A program made the translations under genes and the position numbers. Under the pieces are notes generated by a model. That model was not told the DNA's origin. It made no database searches and worked only from the letters and a program-made list of their open reading frames with translations. Positions 6,291 to 58,767 of a stretch of DNA of 64,000 bases are shown in pieces. The DNA is taken from the sequence record OZ035796.1; one strand, 5' to 3'. Source of the stretch: Felixounavirus NRG857CP1. Each line of letters opens with the position of its first letter. Position 1 is the stretch's first letter.

Positions 6291-6674
6291 TCAAATACCT
6301 GTGCAGCTTCTGTTTTCTAAGAAATACTCCACACCATACATAGCTTTTTGCATCAAATCTTCTTTAAACTGGATACGATGGTTGAGCATAGCCTGTACAT
6401 CAATATCATCATGGTGCTTCTCTTTAATGTTTGCAGATTGCAGGAAATACTCTGCAAGAACACGATATTGGTAGTCAGTCACCTTATCAGTCATCTCTGT
6501 CAAAGACTCTTCAGAGATTGGTTTAAGTAGCTCACCTTTAGATAGAGCAACACCTTTTACAATATGGCAAGTGTCTTCTGGAACACCTGATAAGTCCACA
6601 TTTGGAAGTTCTGTTGCATTGACTGGTAAATTTATTGCCATAACCATTGCAGCAGCTAATAAAATCTTTTTCAT
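6291..6674 (-). CDS. secreted protein with signal peptide
   Basis: 127 aa; N-terminus MKKILLAAAMVMAINLPVNA is a typical Sec signal. Confidence 0.55.
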   Translation of the reverse strand: MKKILLAAAMVMAINLPVNATELPNVDLSGVPEDTCHIVKGVALSKGELLKPISEESLTEMTDKVTDYQYRVLAEYFLQSANIKEKHHDDIDVQAMLNHRIQFKEDLMQKAMYGVEYFLENRSCTGI

Positions 6675-6699
6675 AATGACCTCAAAGTTATATTAAATT

Positions 6700-7060
6700 T
6701 TGTATTACATTGAGTATAAAAATAAGCTATAACACCTGACTTGTCAACAGATTTTATAGCTTATTTGGCAGATTTTTTATAAGGCTACTGCCATCCTTCC
6801 ATACATTACCTAACCAAGCCGAACATCACACAACCAGACCGAGCCGCACCCCGCCTTATTAAAAGACCCTCTTTAAAGACCTTTTAAAAAGGTGAGTCTC
6901 ATTTTAATGTAGCTGAGACTAACTACCCATACCGAACCTCACCGCACCATACTACACCTGACACCACCTTACACCACCGCACCATACCTGACCGAGCTAC
7001 ACATCACTTAAAAACCCTTTTCAAAGACTCTTAAGTGATGCTGGTGAGTACCCGTTGGTT
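6700..7060. repeat. C/A-rich non-coding region with two diverged direct repeat units
   Basis: Two ~110-bp units share ACCGAAC-TCAC, ACCGAGC, TTAAAA-ACCC-TT, AAAGAC, GGTGAGT blocks; composition is atypical for the window. Confidence 0.45.
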
Positions 7061-7094
7061 TATGCTGCTCAGTATACTCACCAAATTTTCTATG

Positions 7095-7283
7095 TCAACA
7101 ACTTTCTAATAAAGTTTTATGAAGATTTTGCTTAACAACCCGCCTCACATGCCTGTGCTCTTTCTTAATAAAGAGTGACCTCTTCTTGATAGAGCGCCTA
7201 TTCTTGTAAGTATTACTAGGATACTTATCATGAACCGGACAACAGCTACCCGGATTGGTAAACTTGATAATCTCTCTTTTCAC
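7095..7283 (-). CDS. small basic protein
   Basis: 62 aa, K/R-rich; 1-nt overlap with the ligase stop. Confidence 0.45.
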   Translation of the reverse strand: MKREIIKFTNPGSCCPVHDKYPSNTYKNRRSIKKRSLFIKKEHRHVRRVVKQNLHKTLLESC

Positions 7284-8383
7284 TATTCATAATCCCTAAT
7301 AACTAACCCGACAGGGAACTGTAAAGAACCCTTACGAGTCATCTTCTGAAACTGAACCGTTAAAGGCTTCCCGATAAACTCTTCAGGATGTTCAGCAAGA
7401 TACTGTTTCTTCTCGTGTGTAGTCTTCCATGAGACATCTACAAAGACGTTAGGAAGAGTCTCTACAACGAACTTGCCATGACCACGTTTATCGGTCTTTA
7501 CACCAGTCACTTTAAACTCTTCAGTGTGCATCTTCTTATGCTTAATCAAGAAGTATGAACGGTGACAACACTCATAGAAGGAGTCTTCAGAGATTGAGCG
7601 GTACATTGCACCTTCAAACTTAGCTTCAACCCACTTATCATGAGCTTCATCAAACTCTTCCCAAGAATTTACACGGATAGTCTGTACAGGAACCACTCTA
7701 CAGGTATCCCCAAGCTCAACAATAGGTGAGTTATCAATAACTTCACGACGCTCAGGCCAAGATTTTGAATTGTCACAGATATCATACCAGTAGAATTTAA
7801 GAAGGTGACGGTCTGGATTGTCAGCATTCTTAATCATAGATACAATATCTTCTAAGTCCCAGCCATGAGCATAAATCTCTCCATCAAAGTCTTCAACTTG
7901 CGGATGTAATTTAAGCAACAAAAGTAAGTCTGGGATTAGTTCTGCTGGAACGTTGTAAACAGTATTCTCACGAGAATAAGCTGTGAAACTGACTGAATCA
8001 GCATCTCTTGAAATTCTACAACGTACACCATCCAGTTTTGGTTGAGCATCAGCAGGGAACTTCAGATACTTTGCATGACTAACCTTTGCAGCATCATGAG
8101 CAAGCTGTACACCTACCTTCTCAGTATTCTGTGCAGACTCTTTTGTGTAAGCATAACCTTTACGGTCAACTTGCTTTTTATACTTAGCAGCAACTTCAAA
8201 GAGAGCTTGCTGTTCAGCGTTACGCTCATTCTTTTTACCGATGTTTTTCGGTTCTGCTGTGTACTCTTCAAACATCATCTTGCCATTTTCTTTACCATAG
8301 GTTGTAATAACTTTGTCACCTACAGCAACGCATGACCAGACGTTGAAAGAGCCATCTTTATTTTGTTTGTATAGGATTGTCAT
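7283..8383 (-). CDS. ATP-dependent DNA ligase
   Basis: Nucleotidyltransferase motif I (PKLDGVR); size typical of phage ligases; start set at the ATG at 8381-8383 preceded by AGAGGA. Confidence 0.8.
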   Translation of the reverse strand: MTILYKQNKDGSFNVWSCVAVGDKVITTYGKENGKMMFEEYTAEPKNIGKKNERNAEQQALFEVAAKYKKQVDRKGYAYTKESAQNTEKVGVQLAHDAAKVSHAKYLKFPADAQPKLDGVRCRISRDADSVSFTAYSRENTVYNVPAELIPDLLLLLKLHPQVEDFDGEIYAHGWDLEDIVSMIKNADNPDRHLLKFYWYDICDNSKSWPERREVIDNSPIVELGDTCRVVPVQTIRVNSWEEFDEAHDKWVEAKFEGAMYRSISEDSFYECCHRSYFLIKHKKMHTEEFKVTGVKTDKRGHGKFVVETLPNVFVDVSWKTTHEKKQYLAEHPEEFIGKPLTVQFQKMTRKGSLQFPVGLVIRDYE

Positions 8384-8385
8384 TT

Positions 8386-8577
8386 TTATTCCTCTGAGTG
8401 ATACCAAGTATTGCAAGCATTACATGCGTAAAGCTCTAAGTCATTTTTATCTGGTTTATGAAAACAGTTTGCTCCGCAGTGGCAACGAAATGGCTTTCCA
8501 CCAACTGTCAGGACGAAGGACTGAATCTTTCCATCAGGAGTCCGTACAGCATTTTTATACTTATCTTCTTTGTTCAT
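8386..8577 (-). CDS. small zinc-finger protein
   Basis: 63 aa with CHCG...C...CNACN Cys/His cluster. Confidence 0.45.
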   Translation of the reverse strand: MNKEDKYKNAVRTPDGKIQSFVLTVGGKPFRCHCGANCFHKPDKNDLELYACNACNTWYHSEE

Positions 8578-43354: not shown

Positions 43355-43422
43355 GAAACTCTGTAGGATATCCACAATAGCCTAAGCCTTTCTTATCTGG
43401 TAAATTTTTCAGGTAAGGAGGG

Positions 43423-43610
43423 CTTTTTCATTTCAGATTTGTGCAGGTAGATTTCTCTACAGAACTCTATAGAGAAAATTTTGAACTCCAAAGAGAAAAT
43501 TCATTTTCAAACTGTGCAGGTAATCTCCAAAGAGCTTTTTCATTTTCAAAACGTGCAGACCCCGCTCAGGTCGGGCAAGAAAAATCATTTTAGAATTGTG
43601 CAGGTAGGTT
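43423..43610. repeat. four direct repeats (~28 nt, core TCATTTTCA-A-TGTGCAGGTA)
   Basis: Copies near 43428, 43501, 43550 and 43586 with irregular spacing (73, 49, 36 nt); non-coding. Confidence 0.6.
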
Positions 43611-43626
43611 TTTATAGACAGCCAGC

Positions 43627-43661
43627 CCAACCCCTCTCCCCCTCTTACTCCCCCTCTCCCC
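43627..43661. repeat. C/T-rich homopyrimidine tract
   Basis: CCCAACCCCTCTCCCCCTCTTACTCCCCCTCTCCCC; exceptional in this AT-rich sequence. Confidence 0.6.
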
Positions 43662-43782
43662 AAAAGTCAAGAGAAAAATTTGTAGCGGATTGAAAAATAA
43701 TTCTTGATTTGCGTTCTGTTTTGTGGTAGTCGTGCGCACCCGTTTCATTACAGTTTTGCCAAAAATATTTTTAAAATTTTTA

Positions 43783-43811
43783 TTGACTCTTTGAACGTGG
43801 TTATCTAATAT
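43783..43811 (+). promoter_or_regulatory. sigma70-like promoter of the small-gene array
   Basis: TTGACT - 17 nt - TAATAT, followed by the conserved GGGGAGGG-AATGACC-(T)TCCCC leader hairpin and AGGAGA Shine-Dalgarno. Confidence 0.55.
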
Positions 43812-46686: not shown

Positions 46687-46751
46687 GTCAATCAACGGGG
46701 AGGGAATGACCTTCCCCACTAAATAAAACCCTTAAACTAGGAGATTCAAAA

Positions 46752-47000
46752 ATGGCAACTATCCGCGCTACTGTTAACGAGTTCGGTTTTTCTTCTCTGG
46801 ATGTTAAATTTGACATTGCAGGCACTGATAACGCCTTTGAAATGGTGAAATGTCTTATCAGTCAGACCATCAAAGATTATAATCCTTCGGATGAGTTCTG
46901 GGAGGAAACAAAACAAGAAGTTCTCAAGGATGGTTATACTTATCACTATTGGGGAGAAAAAATCGTCTCCCTGTACTACAACAAACAAGATTATAACTAA
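46752..47000 (+). CDS. small hypothetical protein (array gene 8)
   Basis: 82 aa; conserved leader. Confidence 0.5.
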   Translation: MATIRATVNEFGFSSLDVKFDIAGTDNAFEMVKCLISQTIKDYNPSDEFWEETKQEVLKDGYTYHYWGEKIVSLYYNKQDYN

Positions 47001-47038
47001 TCGACGCAGCGGGGCTATTTAGCCCCAGATACCTGAAC

Positions 47039-47062
47039 AGCCCCTTAAAATGGGGCTTTTTT
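47039..47062 (+). terminator. rho-independent terminator
   Basis: AGCCCC-ttaaaat-GGGGCT followed by TTTTTT; an additional GGGGCT-attt-AGCCCC hairpin lies just upstream. Confidence 0.65.
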
Positions 47063-48706
47063 ACGTCTATGTAATAGCCTCTATTCAATCCTTTTCCTTT
47101 CCTTTCCAGAATCTATCCCACTGATTCAATAGAATCTTATCAGACCTTAAAAGCAATAACTCTATAGTCTACTCTATAACCTCTTATCAAATCAACTTAA
47201 ATAAAAGCCAATAACCCCAGAAAGGGGATGGCCCATTTAAACGCTCTATAAAGCTCTATAACAGCCTTATCAACCTAACTTAAGGGATTGCATTAACTCA
47301 CCCTTAAAAACCCTTTATAAAGCTTCTCAGAGCCTTAAAAGAATCTTATAAGGGTGTAAGCTTTATCATCTCATTAGTATTCTTGTGAATAACTAAACAA
47401 CCCCTTGATAGTCACTAAAAAGTATGTTATAGGGGGCTTTAAAGTTACTTTGAAGTAGCTTAAAAGTTACGTAAAAGAGGTTATAAAGTTACGTAAATGC
47501 TAGCCCCCTTAACATTTTCTTAACAATTTCTTAACAACCCCCTACATAGTTATGCTTGTTAGAGACTTGTTAGCCCCTTGTTAAATCTCTGTTAAGACCA
47601 CGTAAAAGCCTTGTAAGAACCTTTGACATAGCCTTAAAAGCTCCTGTAAAGCCCTATAAAGAGCTATCCATACAGTTGAGGGGTAGATACTAGGAAGAGA
47701 TTTAAAAGAGCTTACAAGGAGCTATAGAGAGCTTTTAAAGGGTATGTTTAGAGAATCACTAAGAAAGAGAGGGAACGATAAGAAAAGAGTAGTGACCATG
47801 TTAATAGCTTGTTAAAAAGATTAAACACTTGTTAAAAACTTGTTAATTATCTTAACAAAATAACTCTTAAAAATTAACTTGTTAGCTCTTGTTAGTCATC
47901 TGTTAAGATTCTGTAAAGCCCATGTATCAACTGTTAAGAAACTGTTAAGCCCTTGTTAGCTCTGTTAAGAATCTGTTAAGACCTTTGAAGAGTTGTTAAG
48001 AAGATGTTAGAACTGTTGAGAGATTGTTAATGATATTTTAAAATTTTGCAAAGTACTTGTAAGGGAGCTGTTAAGGGCTACCAAGCAGATATACATCTTC
48101 TACAGATATTTTTGAGTTCCTTCAAAGACCCTAAAAAAATGACTTGATATTCCTATTTTATAAAAATTTTAAAATTCTGAATAATTACCTATACAGTCTT
48201 TTAAAAATACAGGCATAAACAGGCTTATAAGATACCTTGTTAGTACCGTGTTAGACCTTGTGAGATAAGGTCTGTAAAGATATTCCTGTTAAGTTTGTTA
48301 AAACAGTCTATATAGAGGCTTAGTAATACCTAGTGAACACCTATAGAGGGTAACATAGCTGACATAATGGGTTACTGTTAAGTAACACAGATAACCTAGA
48401 GATTAAGAGGTGTATAGGGGGCTTCTAAGAGGGTATAGAGAGATGGTTAAGGTGATTGTATAGGCTGTTAAGAAGGCTTGTTAGAAGAGTGTTTAGAAGG
48501 GCTATACAGAGGGGCTATTAAGACCACTAGATAGTTACTAAGATACTATATAGTACTATATAACTATATATAGAGAGTAAGCTTAAGAAGGTTGTTAAGA
48601 AGGGTAGATATTTTATTCACATATGATGGTGACCCAGAGGTTGGGACAACCGATGAAATTTTATAAAAATTAAAAAGCCCCCAATTAAGGAGGCTCTTAA
48701 GATATT
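47063..48706. repeat. ORF-free ~1.6-kb island dense in short iterated motifs
   Basis: No ORF of 60 aa or more on either strand; dozens of (C)TTGTTAG / CTGTTAAG / GTTAAGA and CCTTAAAAG / CTATAAAGAGCT copies; lies between convergent transcription units. Confidence 0.7.
48675..48700 (-). terminator. rho-independent terminator candidate (minus strand)
   Basis: On the minus strand AGCCTCC-ttaatt-GGGGGCT followed by TTTTT, just downstream of the last minus-strand gene. Confidence 0.5.
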
Positions 48707-57952: not shown

Positions 57953-58029
57953 CTCTGTTTAGCTCAGCTTGGTAGAGCGTTCCGTTTGGGGCGGTAAGGC
58001 CGGAGGTTCAAGTCCTCCAACAGAGACCA
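57953..58029 (+). tRNA. tRNA-Pro (anticodon TGG)
   Basis: Hand-folded cloverleaf: 7-bp acceptor CTCTGTT/AACAGAG, D-arm GCTC/GAGC, anticodon loop TTTGGGG, T-arm GGAGG-TTCAAGT-CCTCC, encoded CCA. Confidence 0.7.
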
Positions 58030-58036
58030 AATTAAT

Positions 58037-58114
58037 GTTCCAGTAGACAAAACGGTAAAGTCACCACTCTTTCAAAGTGGATATTTGAGGGTTCAAATCC
58101 CTTCTGGAACGCCA
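58037..58114 (+). tRNA. tRNA-Glu (anticodon TTC)
   Basis: Acceptor GTTCCAG/CTGGAAC, anticodon stem CCACT/AGTGG with loop CTTTCAA, T-loop TTCAAAT, CCA. Confidence 0.7.
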
Positions 58115-58121
58115 GTTTTGA

Positions 58122-58194
58122 CAGAAGACCAATTACAGCAAACTTAATCTTATTCATCTGAAGCTAAATCGGACAAAGAAGAGATTTGGTCTGG
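58122..58194 (+). ncRNA. conserved stem element A1 (CAGAAGACCA...TGGTCTGG)
   Basis: 20-nt conserved 5' box CAGAAGACCAATTACAGCAA and downstream complementary TGGTCTGG; member of a 4-copy family with covarying stem bases. Confidence 0.4.
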
Positions 58195-58206
58195 TCATTA
58201 AGAATT

Positions 58207-58281
58207 GCGGGTATAGAGAAAGGGCGTCTCACATGTCTCATTAGCATGGTATCGGCAGGTTCGACTCCTGCACCCGCCTCC
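58207..58281 (+). tRNA. tRNA with CAT anticodon (Met or Ile2)
   Basis: Anticodon stem CATGT/GCATG with loop CTCATTA; T-arm GCAGG-TTCGACT-CCTGC; acceptor GCGGGT/ACCCGC. Confidence 0.6.
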
Positions 58282-58288
58282 AATTTTG

Positions 58289-58348
58289 CAGAAGACCGTA
58301 TGCAGCAATAAACTACTTTTTGCGGATAAAAGAAAAAACACGGTCTGG
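58289..58348 (+). ncRNA. conserved stem element A2 (CAGAAGACCG...CGGTCTGG)
   Basis: Same 5' box with A-to-G change matched by T-to-C in the 3' partner (covariation). Confidence 0.4.
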
Positions 58349-58359
58349 CAATGTATTAA

Positions 58360-58436
58360 GGTTAGGAAGCACATAAGGTATGTGCGGTCGCCTGTTAAGC
58401 GAATGGCACAGGGTTCGAATCCCTGACTAACCGCCA
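58360..58436 (+). tRNA. tRNA-Asn (anticodon GTT)
   Basis: Acceptor GGTTAGG/ACTAACC, D-stem GCAC/GTGC, anticodon loop CTGTTAA, T-arm CAGGG-TTCGAAT-CCCTG, CCA. Confidence 0.65.
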
Positions 58437-58445
58437 AATTTAAAT

Positions 58446-58533
58446 GTGTCGTTATCCCGTAGATGGTAGCGGTGGGGACTGTAAATCCCTTGTCATTGAG
58501 ACTCGGTAGGTTCGACTCCTACACGGCACACCA
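58446..58533 (+). tRNA. tRNA-Tyr (anticodon GTA), long variable arm
   Basis: 88 nt; acceptor GTGTCGT/ACGGCAC; anticodon stem GGGGA/TCCCT with loop CTGTAAA; long variable arm; T-loop TTCGACT; CCA. Confidence 0.7.
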
Positions 58534-58539
58534 AATAAA

Positions 58540-58616
58540 GGTTATGTAGTTTAACTGGATAAAATACTCCCCTGTCACGGGAGATGATGTGAGTTCAAGT
58601 CTCATCGTAACCGCCA
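58540..58616 (+). tRNA. tRNA-Asp (anticodon GTC)
   Basis: Acceptor GGTTATG/CGTAACC; anticodon stem CTCCC/GGGAG with loop CTGTCAC; T-loop TTCAAGT; CCA. Confidence 0.7.
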
Positions 58617-58677
58617 ATTTTGAGAGGGCTATTTAGCTCCTCCCTTAAAGAGTTCTTACGAGTATTCTTTAAAGGAG

Positions 58678-58754
58678 CAGAAGACCAATTACAGCAAGTA
58701 CGTATGATATTTTCAAGCCAATTTAATTTTGAAAAAATTTAAAACTTGGTCTGG
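58678..58754 (+). ncRNA. conserved stem element A3 (CAGAAGACCA...TGGTCTGG)
   Basis: Third copy of the conserved box with matching 3' partner. Confidence 0.4.
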
Positions 58755-58767
58755 CTCAACAAATTTA

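What the first reader, a model, noticed from the sequence alone, without database searches (positions are those of the whole stretch)
6700..7060. C/A-rich intergenic block with two diverged direct repeat units
A 420-bp gap between minus-strand genes has strong strand compositional skew and two ~110-bp degenerate repeat units. It is non-coding and differs in composition from its surroundings. It could be a promoter or regulatory region for the downstream operon, an origin, or a small-RNA locus.
Basis: seen in the sequence. Interest (0 to 1): 0.45.

Follow-up and report, generated by a model that had tools for sequence, protein, structure and literature searches.

The report
Effector-less VIPR guide-RNA array in phage
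The C/A-rich gap encodes, on the other strand, two guide RNAs of the recently described phage VIPR system, which recognises DNA through GGY-NN pentamer repeats, but this phage has lost the protein that uses them.

Summary
The 420-bp gap (6675-7094) lies in a Felixounavirus genome, 100% identical to NRG857CP1. Read on the minus (gene-sense) strand, the two C/A-rich blocks are tracts of 15 and 11 pentamers, (G/D)-G-Y-N-N, in strict 5-nt register. A conserved hairpin precedes each tract and a conserved 38-nt pseudoknotted tail follows it. Two sigma-70-like promoters bracket the pair.

In 23 related phages the hairpins, tails and promoters are nearly invariant. The NN dinucleotides are hypervariable and tract length is a multiple of 5 in 74 of 76 cases. 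This is the architecture of vrRNAs of VIPR systems (bioRxiv 10.64898/2026.04.26.720920). The locus is syntenic with the paper's model locus in phage SUSP1.

Under the published 1-nt-skip rule, the longer guide matches the tape-measure gene of the E. coli satellite that this VIPR clade targets. It matches 23-26 of 30 NN bases, in frame, with the skipped base at the wobble position. No target was found for the shorter guide.

Unlike SUSP1, this phage has no vipr or vap gene anywhere in its genome. The array is effector-less, most likely after recombination between the repeated tail/hairpin modules. About half of related phage records appear to be in the same state. This is a new member of a known, very recently described kind.

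The parts
7071..7098 (-). Promoter P1: TTGACA (7098..7093), 16-nt spacer, TATACT (7076..7071). It lies at the 3' end of small ORF 7095..7283 and presumably drives the vrRNA array.
   Evidence: The consensus scan gives 11 of 12 matches. The sequence is identical to that upstream of SUSP1 vrRNA1, which the paper detected by sRNA-seq.
7043..7082 (-). Inverted repeat H0 (GGTGAGTA...TACTCACC) overlapping the -10 element of P1. Its function is unknown.
   Evidence: Read directly from the sequence. It is conserved in relatives and in SUSP1.
7002..7040 (-). Hairpin H1a (CATCACTTAA-loop-TTAAGTGATG), the 5' flank of vrRNA-B. The loop GAGTCTT..GGGTTT is conserved.
   Evidence: Inverted repeat I14 is 100% complementary. 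Folding gives -15.5 kcal/mol, z = -4.9. It is conserved in all relatives.
6929..7003 (-). vrRNA-B guide tract of 15 GGYNN units. The NN series is GT TC CA AT GC GG AA GG CA GT AT GC GA TC AT.
   Evidence: The identical tract occurs in L010, and near-identical ones in the vipr-positive loci L016 and L020. It matches the satellite tape-measure gene at 23-26 of 30 NN bases.
6891..6928 (-). vrRNA-B 3' tail (type 1): an H-type pseudoknot. Stem 1 is GTAG/CTAC and stem 2 is AGTCTCA/TGAGACT. CTTTTT follows.
   Evidence: Covariation across the four basic tail types (17 variants): 9 of 12 pairs change on both sides and 91% of cells are paired, against 26-44% when the partners are slid.
6854..6892 (-). 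Hairpin H1b (CCTTTTTAAAAG-loop-CTTTTAATAAGG), the spacer between the two vrRNAs and the 5' flank of vrRNA-A.
   Evidence: Inverted repeat I9. Folding gives -11.6 kcal/mol, z = -2.6. L017 shows compensated stem changes.
6801..6855 (-). vrRNA-A guide tract of 11 units, more degenerate (GGC x3, TGT x3). The NN series is GG GC TC CT TG GA TC TT TA AA AT.
   Evidence: It is identical to the last guide of vipr-positive locus L021 and differs by 1 nt from that of L012. No target at 80% or better was found.
6763..6800 (-). vrRNA-A 3' tail (type 2): a pseudoknot with stem 1 AAGG/CCTT and stem 2 TGGCAG/CTGCCA.
   Evidence: Same columns and pairs as tail 1, with compensatory changes. It is identical to the tail of the last SUSP1 vrRNA.
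6719..6766 (-). A 19-bp-stem hairpin followed by TTTTT (terminator-like), carrying the -35 TTGACA of promoter P2 in its loop. P2 serves the downstream gene 6291..6674.
   Evidence: Inverted repeat I1. The promoter scan gives 10 of 12 matches. Folding gives -17.2 kcal/mol, z = -5.7.
6291..6674 (-). Downstream flanking gene (127 aa, signal-peptide-like N-terminus). It is the homologue of wV8 gene 93 and marks the 3' border of the VIPR locus in relatives.
7095..8416 (-). Upstream flank: the DNA ligase gene (7283..8416) and a 62-codon ORF (7095..7283). In SUSP1 and wV8, vipr and vap lie between this flank and gene 93. Here they are absent.

Best explanation
The block is a two-gene array of VIPR guide RNAs (vrRNAs) of the SUSP1 clade (type II VIPR), encoded on the minus strand. 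Each vrRNA is a tract of GGYNN pentamers (15 and 11 units) followed by a conserved 38-nt pseudoknotted tail. Hairpins precede the tracts, and promoter P1 lies upstream of the pair.

In complete systems, as shown in the cited preprint, a small RAMP-fold protein (Vipr) binds the vrRNA. The conserved GGY triplets are handled by the protein, while the NN dinucleotides pair with double-stranded DNA that reads NN-x-NN-x (one skipped base per unit). This silences a competing mobile element.

Here the 15-unit guide is addressed to the tape-measure gene of an E. coli satellite element, with the skipped base on the codon wobble position.

This phage lacks vipr and vap. I infer that they were deleted by recombination between the repeated tail/hairpin modules that flank them. 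The promoter context of the first vrRNA and the 3' context of the last vrRNA are identical to those in SUSP1, so the two RNAs are probably still made. They cannot act unless Vipr is supplied in trans.

Shown here: the anatomy, the conservation pattern, the synteny, the absence of vipr, and the target match. Taken from the paper: expression, Vipr binding and the silencing mechanism. Inferred: the deletion history and the present activity.
For: - **Repeat pattern.** Over 753 pentamers from 24 loci, position 1 is G 87%, position 2 is G 99%, position 3 is T 93% or C 7%, and positions 4-5 are any base. These tracts were selected with a GGT-based score, so the frequencies at positions 1-3 are partly built in. 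The anchor-defined tracts give GGY 73-77% and xGY 98%. All tracts lie on the gene-sense strand.
- **Register.** Tract length is a multiple of 5 in 74 of 76 cases.
- **Conservation.** Flanks are 95-100% conserved while the tracts cannot be aligned.
- **Tail.** The pseudoknot is supported by covariation.
- **Literature.** The preprint describes vrRNAs as 9-16 YNNGG repeats plus an invariant pseudoknotted tail, about 100 nt, with one vrRNA upstream and three downstream of vipr-vap in SUSP1.
- **Synteny.** My parse of the SUSP1 locus gives exactly one upstream and three downstream tracts, the same promoters, and the same flanking genes as the window.
- **Target of vrRNA-B.** It matches the same in-frame site of the satellite tape-measure gene in 7 of 9 satellites at 23-26 of 30 bases. 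One of these, L033, carries WP_096972664.1, the accession the paper names. The best match in the phage's own genome is 19 of 30. P(>=25/30) is 3e-11 per site.
- **Rule check.** 31 of 49 guides from complete loci and 7 of 13 from effector-less loci reach 80% in nine satellites. Shuffled-unit controls reach it in 1 of 49 and 0 of 13.
- **Absence of vipr and vap.** tblastn against the whole phage genome finds neither protein. A 48-sequence profile of the 195-aa protein also finds nothing: positive control E = 6e-82, best hit in the phage E = 1.6.
- **Deletion junction.** The tract B side resembles the upstream arrays of L016 and L020. The tail 1 (CTCACC) - H1b (AAAGAGGG) - tract A side is identical to the downstream array of L021 and near-identical to that of L012.
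Against: - There is no expression data for this phage.
- No Vipr is encoded, so the described mechanism cannot run in cis.
- vrRNA-A has no identified target, and only 8 of its 11 units are GGY.
- The last two units of vrRNA-B mismatch every satellite examined.
- The H1 hairpins are not accounted for in the text of the preprint.
- The mechanistic part rests on one recent preprint, not yet peer reviewed.
- A Vipr of a very distant type would escape my profile search.
Confidence: 0.85

Rival explanations
1. The guide-only array is kept by selection rather than being a deletion scar. Its RNAs would be loaded onto Vipr made by a co-infecting vipr-positive relative. That would either borrow the defence against the satellite or act as decoys that occupy a competitor's Vipr.
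For: About half of the phage records that hold this intergenic region lack vipr: 230 records against 118 with Vipr above 90% identity. Every effector-less locus examined still has 1-2 intact tracts. GGY integrity is equal in effector-less and complete loci (73% vs 77%; xGY 98% in both). Effector-less guides hit satellites as often as guides from complete loci (7 of 13 vs 31 of 49). Satellites that lack vipr also carry a tract with a phage-like tail, and the paper reports satellite vrRNAs. That is a precedent for use in trans.
Against: Guide A of this window is identical, and guide B near-identical, to guides in vipr-positive relatives, so their integrity may simply reflect a recent deletion. 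Direct repeats of 40-80 bp flanking the cassette make recurrent deletion easy. Both one-unit and two-unit scars exist, as expected from different crossover points. There is no evidence for co-infection dependence.
Confidence: 0.12
2. It is a binding platform for a ring-shaped or filament-forming RNA- or ssDNA-binding protein unrelated to VIPR. The model is the TRAP attenuator, where 11 (G/U)AG triplets are spaced by 2-3 nt. It would regulate the downstream operon.
For: A conserved triplet recurs every 5 nt with free spacers, upstream of an operon and between promoters and terminator-like hairpins.
Against: The triplet is GGY, not (G/U)AG. The published VIPR system explains the pattern, the tail, the synteny and the target matches of the NN bases. 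A pure protein-binding platform would not predict that the NN bases match satellite genes in frame.
Confidence: 0.02
3. It is a replication origin or R-loop initiation zone: a promoter followed by a G-rich non-template strand, as at phage T4 origins or ColE1.
For: A strong sigma-70-like promoter is followed by about 75 nt with a G-rich coding strand.
Against: G-richness alone does not need a strict 5-nt register, hypervariable NN bases or a conserved pseudoknot tail. Copy number varies from 1 to 6 units per locus. No origin features were found here.
Confidence: 0.01

Closest known systems
vrRNAs of the type II VIPR system of Escherichia phage SUSP1 (bioRxiv 10.64898/2026.04.26.720920)
   Same: It sits in the same genomic slot, between the DNA ligase gene and the homologue of wV8 gene 93. 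It has the same P1 and P2 promoters, the same hairpins, the same GGYNN tracts (9-19 units), the same pseudoknotted tails and the same class of target (E. coli satellite genes, 1-nt skip on the wobble base).
   Different: There is no vipr and no vap in the locus or elsewhere in the genome. There are two vrRNAs rather than four. Expression is not shown for this phage.
vrRNA genes carried by the E. coli satellite elements themselves (paper; loci L031 and L033 here)
   Same: A guide gene sits in a genome that has no vipr, so any activity must depend on Vipr from another genome.
   Different: A satellite always meets its helper phage. A virulent phage would need a co-infecting relative. The satellite tail is the T3-like variant with its own compensated stem 2.
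Orphan CRISPR arrays and phage-borne mini-arrays or solitary repeat units (from my own knowledge)
   Same: Guide-encoding arrays occur without adjacent effector genes. Conserved structured repeat modules alternate with variable targeting segments.
   Different: The guide is a gapped code (NN every 5 nt) rather than a contiguous spacer. No Cas1/Cas2 acquisition machinery is known. The repeat module here is a tail plus hairpin of about 75 nt.
TRAP-binding (G/U)AG repeats of the Bacillus trp leader (from my own knowledge)
   Same: A conserved triplet recurs roughly every 5 nt with free spacers, and is read by an oligomeric protein.
   Different: The triplet differs (GGY). The spacers carry base-pairing information for a DNA target. 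The partner protein has a RAMP fold and is not TRAP.

Membership tests
VIPR vrRNA (type II, SUSP1 clade) | 9-16 tandem YNNGG/GGYNN units with conserved GGY and hypervariable NN | tested here: met
   There are 15 and 11 units. The position weight matrix over 753 units gives G .87, G .99, T .93 / C .07, N, N. NN bases cannot be aligned between phages whose flanks are 95-100% identical.
VIPR vrRNA (type II, SUSP1 clade) | Invariant 3' tail with a conserved pseudoknot | tested here: met
   A 38-nt tail follows each tract. Across 17 tail variants of four basic types, 9 of 12 pairs show changes on both sides and 91% of cells are paired, against 26-44% in slid controls. Only about four independent tail lineages exist, so the number of events is small.
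VIPR vrRNA (type II, SUSP1 clade) | Encoded in the intergenic DNA that flanks a vipr (RAMP) gene | tested here: not met
   The locus is syntenic with SUSP1. However, vipr and vap are absent from the window and from the rest of genome OZ035806.1 by tblastn, and vipr also by profile HMM.
VIPR vrRNA (type II, SUSP1 clade) | NN dinucleotides match a natural DNA target under the 1-nt-skip rule (at least 80% of NN bases) | tested here: met
   vrRNA-B matches 26/30 (87%) in L032, 25/30 in L033-L036, 24/30 in L038 and 23/30 in L031. The site is always the same in-frame position of the satellite tape-measure gene.
VIPR vrRNA (type II, SUSP1 clade) | The same target test, applied to the second guide (vrRNA-A) | tested here: inconclusive
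   The best match is 15/22 in nine satellites and 16/22 in the phage itself, which is background level. Exact-pattern scans of IMG/VR and of species-representative genomes found nothing. The paper also found targets for only 20 of 41 guides.
VIPR vrRNA (type II, SUSP1 clade) | No self-targeting of the carrier genome | tested here: met
   The best self matches are 19/30 (vrRNA-B) and 16/22 (vrRNA-A) over the whole 87-kb genome.
VIPR vrRNA (type II, SUSP1 clade) | Expressed as an RNA of about 100 nt that co-purifies with Vipr | not testable with these tools
   The only evidence is indirect. P1 and the 5' flank of vrRNA-B are identical to those of the expressed SUSP1 vrRNA1, and the 3' flank of vrRNA-A is identical to that of the last SUSP1 vrRNA. 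The predicted sizes are 113 and 93 nt.
Complete VIPR system | A vipr gene encoding a small RAMP-fold protein | tested here: not met
Complete VIPR system | An accessory vap gene next to vipr | tested here: not met
   The 146-aa vap homologue is absent by tblastn.
Rfam families (any) | A match to a curated covariance model | tested here: not met
   Only chance-level hits were found, far below the gathering scores. vrRNAs are not in Rfam 15.
TRAP-type attenuator RNA | (G/U)AG triplets spaced by 2-3 nt, overlapping an antiterminator | tested here: not met
   The triplet is GGY with G invariant at position 2. No TRAP-like gene was sought beyond the Pfam scan of the two cassette proteins, which gave no meaningful match.

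The most novel reading that the evidence does not exclude
Guide-only vrRNA arrays, present in roughly half of Felixounavirus genomes, may not be scars. They may be kept because their RNAs work with Vipr made by another genome in the same cell. In that case they would either borrow anti-satellite defence or act as decoys that occupy a rival's Vipr. This would be an RNA-only strategy in phage-phage-satellite conflict.
Probability: 0.12. Interest if true: 0.75.

Novelty: new member of a known kind. Interest (0 to 1): 0.5.

Why it matters
VIPR is a newly reported way of recognising DNA with RNA. It uses a gapped code carried by pentamer repeats and read by a protein proposed to be an ancestor of the CRISPR RAMPs. 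This window shows that a tool-less reader can spot the signature as a strand-skewed non-coding block.

The published 1-nt-skip rule and its satellite targets can also be reproduced independently from raw sequence. In nine satellites, 31 of 49 guides from complete loci and 7 of 13 from effector-less loci reached the 80% threshold, against 1 of 62 shuffled controls.

The window also exposes something the text of the preprint does not discuss. Many close relatives, including this phage, keep intact-looking, satellite-matching guides without the effector gene. Whether that reflects frequent recent deletion or a guide-only lifestyle can be tested directly. The answer bears on how such systems are gained, lost and shared among co-infecting viruses.

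Tried and rejected
- **Rfam.** A search at a permissive E-value gave only chance hits.
- **TRAP-like RNA platform.** I considered it because of the 5-nt triplet periodicity. It does not fit the triplet and is superseded by the VIPR identification.
- **Rho loading site on the plus-strand RNA (C-rich, G-poor).** I considered it, but it does not explain the strict register, the tails or the NN-to-target matches.
- **R-loop origin or two-tetrad G-quadruplex.** I considered both. Neither has specific support.
- **Coding potential.** A 5-nt period is incompatible with codons. The short ORF that starts in hairpin H1a is not conserved.
- **BLAST of the array against 5,426 complete E. coli genomes.** No match, so host copies of the conserved modules are not detectable this way.
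- **Exact 1-nt-skip pattern scans.**
  - Full vrRNA-B pattern in IMG/VR: 0 hits.
  - Full vrRNA-A pattern in IMG/VR: 0 hits.
  - Full vrRNA-A pattern in GTDB species representatives: 0 hits.
  - The 12-unit core of vrRNA-B in GTDB species representatives: 0 hits.
  - The last result is expected, because the satellites are strain-specific. Targets appeared only after I located the satellites through their phage-like baseplate gene and scanned them locally with mismatches allowed.
- **Pfam scan of the two cassette proteins.** Nothing useful.
- **Literature searches on Felixounavirus transcriptomes and on the Felix O1, wV8 and UAB_Phi87 genome papers.** No description of this element. The wV8 record merely labels part of it 'DR_4', and some other records label it 'repeat_region'.

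Full report
**1. What is there**

The window is a Felixounavirus genome segment, 100% identical to OZ035806.1 NRG857CP1. The finding lies in a run of minus-strand early genes. DNA ligase (7283..8416) and a 62-codon ORF (7095..7283) lie upstream, and a 127-codon gene (6291..6674) lies downstream. The gap is exactly 420 bp. GC skew reaches -0.50 and GC content rises to 0.48, against about 0.38 nearby.

Read on the minus, gene-sense strand, the two C/A-rich blocks become runs of pentamers beginning with GGT. The 5' to 3' order on that strand is as follows:
- Promoter P1: TTGACA, 16-nt spacer, TATACT (11 of 12 matches), at 7098..7071.
- Inverted repeat H0, over the -10 element.
- Hairpin H1a, 7040..7002.
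- Tract B, 7003..6929 (15 pentamers).
- Tail 1, 6928..6891.
- Hairpin H1b, 6892..6854.
- Tract A, 6855..6801 (11 pentamers).
- Tail 2, 6800..6763.
- A long hairpin followed by TTTTT, 6766..6720, that carries the -35 element of promoter P2 in its loop.

A scan of both strands of the whole 64-kb window for such pentamer tracts finds only this locus.

**2. Conservation pattern**

I fetched 23 IMG/VR loci through the downstream gene, together with wV8, humlepung, UAB_Phi87 and phiSUSP1.
- The promoters, hairpins and tails are almost invariant. The tracts between them cannot be aligned, even between phages whose flanks are 95-100% identical.
- The register is still strictly kept. The distance from the end of the hairpin to the start of the tail is a multiple of 5 in 74 of 76 cases, giving 9-19 units.
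- Over 753 pentamers, position 1 is G 87% (otherwise T or A), position 2 is G 99%, position 3 is T 93% or C 7%, and positions 4-5 are free. The tract detector scored GGT, so part of this bias at positions 1-3 is built in. The anchor-defined tracts give GGY 73-77% and xGY 98%.
- All tracts lie on the gene-sense strand.
- The tails come in four sequence types that fit one H-type pseudoknot. 9 of 12 pairs change on both sides, and 91% of cells are paired, against 26-44% when the partners are slid. The number of independent lineages is small.
- The hairpins are stable: H1a -15.5 kcal/mol (z -4.9), H1b -11.6 (z -2.6), P2 hairpin -17.2 (z -5.7). The predicted mature RNAs are no more structured than shuffles, as expected for a guide segment.

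**3. Identification**

Before searching the literature I had considered a TRAP-like protein-binding RNA, a Rho loading site on the opposite strand, an R-loop origin and G-quadruplexes.

A full-text search for pentanucleotide repeats in phage intergenic regions returned a June 2026 preprint, bioRxiv 10.64898/2026.04.26.720920. [quoted passage not shown]
- A small RAMP-fold protein, Vipr, plus an accessory gene, vap.
- vrRNAs made of 9-16 YNNGG repeats, with GGY conserved and NN hypervariable, followed by an invariant tail that forms a pseudoknot in the SUSP1 clade. They are about 100 nt long.
- In phage SUSP1, one vrRNA lies upstream and three lie downstream of the two genes. All four were detected by small-RNA sequencing and co-purify with Vipr.
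- Targets are double-stranded DNA, read by the NN dinucleotides with one skipped base per unit. In the SUSP1 clade they lie mostly in an E. coli satellite phage.

My parse of the phiSUSP1 record gives the following order: ligase, the same small ORF, the same P1, H1a, one tract, a tail, a 195-codon gene, a 146-codon gene, a terminator, three tract-tail units, the same P2, and the homologue of the window's downstream gene. This is exactly the published layout, in exactly the window's slot.

**4. Target test**

I located the satellites in E. coli chromosomes through their phage-like baseplate gene. 474 of 5,426 genomes carry it. I fetched nine of them. One, L033, carries WP_096972664.1 and WP_096972663.1, the accessions the paper names.

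Results for the two window guides under the 1-nt-skip rule:
- Tract B matches one site in the satellite tape-measure gene: 26/30 in L032, 25/30 in L033 to L036, 24/30 in L038 and 23/30 in L031.
- The NN bases fall on codon positions 1-2 and the skipped base on the wobble position.
- Two satellites have a diverged site (19/30).
- The background maximum is 20/30, and the phage's own genome gives at most 19/30.
- P(>=25/30) is 3e-11 per site.
- Tract A has no match above background.

As a general check of the rule, I ran all unique guides against the nine satellites. The 80% threshold was reached by 31 of 49 guides from complete loci and 7 of 13 from effector-less loci. Shuffled-unit controls reached it in 1 of 49 and 0 of 13.

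**5. What differs here: no effector**

- In the window the two genes between the units are missing.
- tblastn with both proteins against the window and the rest of the genome (L028, L029) finds nothing.
- A profile of 48 Vipr homologues also finds nothing. The positive control scores E = 6e-82 and the best hit in the phage scores E = 1.6.
- Among the IMG/VR loci, 14 are complete and 8 are effector-less, in addition to the window.
- In GenBank phages, 230 records hold the intergenic region but only 118 hold a Vipr above 90% identical. The deficit is largest among Salmonella phages. These counts are approximate.
- Effector-less loci have one or two units. They always start with the P1-linked hairpin and end with the P2-linked tail. 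This is what recombination between the repeated hairpin or tail modules on either side of the cassette would leave behind.
- In the window, the left part (P1, H1a, tract B) resembles the upstream arrays of the vipr-positive loci L016 and L020. The right part (tail 1 ending CTCACC, H1b with AAAGAGGG, tract A, tail 2) is identical to the downstream array of L021 and differs from that of L012 by 1 nt in tract A. This places the junction in tail 1.
- Guide A is identical, and guide B nearly identical, to guides in vipr-positive relatives, so the loss looks recent.
- GGY integrity is the same in effector-less and complete loci (73% vs 77% GGY; 98% xGY in both). This fits either recent loss or selection and cannot separate the two.
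- The satellites also lack vipr. Two of them nevertheless carry their own tract with a phage-like tail that has compensated stem changes. The paper reports satellite vrRNAs as well.

**6. Mechanism and status of each step**

Shown here:
- the anatomy;
- the conservation pattern;
- the covariation in the tail;
- the synteny with SUSP1;
- the RAMP fold of the partner protein in relatives;
- the absence of that protein in this phage;
- the in-frame match of vrRNA-B to the satellite, and the absence of self-targeting.

Taken from the preprint:
- vrRNAs are expressed;
- they bind Vipr;
- they direct it to double-stranded DNA under the 1-nt-skip rule;
- binding silences transcription.

Inferred:
- P1 still drives the two RNAs here;
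- the H1 hairpins are spacer or processing elements, a role the paper's text does not describe;
- the cassette was deleted by repeat recombination;
- the RNAs are inactive unless Vipr comes from another genome.

**7. Verdict**

The finding is real. It belongs to a kind that has been known only since mid-2026. It is a new member of that kind, in the same clade and the same slot as the model system, so it is not categorically new.

Its interest lies in two things. It provides an independent sequence-only confirmation of the code and its targets. It also shows the common effector-less state, which can be tested experimentally.

Noticed in passing
window 43400-43800: A non-coding stretch between plus-strand genes holds about four copies of a motif of about 27 nt (TTTTCATTTTCAAAACTGTGCAGGTA-like). 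It also holds a very C-rich run (43620-43665, CCAGCCCAACCCCTCTCCCCCTCTTACTCCCCCTCTCCCC) and a 21-nt tandem repeat at 43462-43501. It could be a genome end, a packaging site or an origin region.
   Followed up: no
window 46700-48700: About 2 kb has no ORF of 100 codons or more, between the end of a plus-strand block and the start of a minus-strand block. It contains tandem repeats of 22, 11, 31 and 62 nt built on TGTTAAGA (47436-48030) and a G-rich, C-poor stretch (48390-48520) with repeated GTTAAGA/TAGAAG words. Candidates are terminal repeat, packaging region or origin.
   Followed up: no
window 57953-63585: A cluster of 25 tRNA genes on the plus strand, typical of Felix O1-like phages.
   Followed up: no
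L031 6871-6915 (-) and L033 2546-2610 (-): E. coli satellite elements, integrated next to tonB/yciI or in the DUF72 gene near yecN, carry their own GGYNN tract of 9 and 13 units. It is followed by a phage-like tail (GGGTGGATTGTCGTAGCCACGTTAAAAATCGAC) with a compensated second stem. They have no vipr or vap homologue.
   Followed up: partly
L037 and L039 (satellites of O111:H21 and O157:H7 strains): The tape-measure site matched by vrRNA-B is diverged in these two satellites. L039 matches only 19/30 at the homologous position. L037 also reaches only 19/30, at an unrelated position. These could be escape variants.
   Followed up: no
window 7095-7283 (-): A 62-codon ORF (GTG start) rich in basic residues and with a CC...H motif directly follows the ligase gene and ends inside the -35 element of P1. 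The same sequence is present but unannotated in phiSUSP1. UAB_Phi87 instead has a different small hydrophobic ORF at this spot, so the position downstream of ligase is variable.
   Followed up: no
window 7002-7040 and 6854-6892; L005-L027: The hairpins that precede each tract share a conserved loop (GTCTT...GAGGGTYTTT) on three different stems. The third version sits just upstream of vipr in complete loci, without a tract after it. The text of the preprint does not describe their role (processing signal, or protein binding?).
   Followed up: partly
GenBank records MN850564.1, EU877232.1, JN225449.1: Existing annotations label parts of the vrRNA tracts only as 'repeat_region' or 'DR_4'. UAB_Phi87 carries two short overlapping 'hypothetical protein' CDS (Phi87_107 and Phi87_108) between the ligase gene and the first vrRNA unit, overlapping P1 and H0. 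At least the plus-strand one (Phi87_108) is probably spurious.
   Followed up: no
one search hits H144-H150: Vipr homologues at 23-44% identity occur in Gordonia, Mycobacterium, Pseudomonas, Vibrio and Listonella phages (for example phiHSIC ORF22, LittleE gp34). This agrees with the wide distribution reported for VIPR.
   Followed up: no
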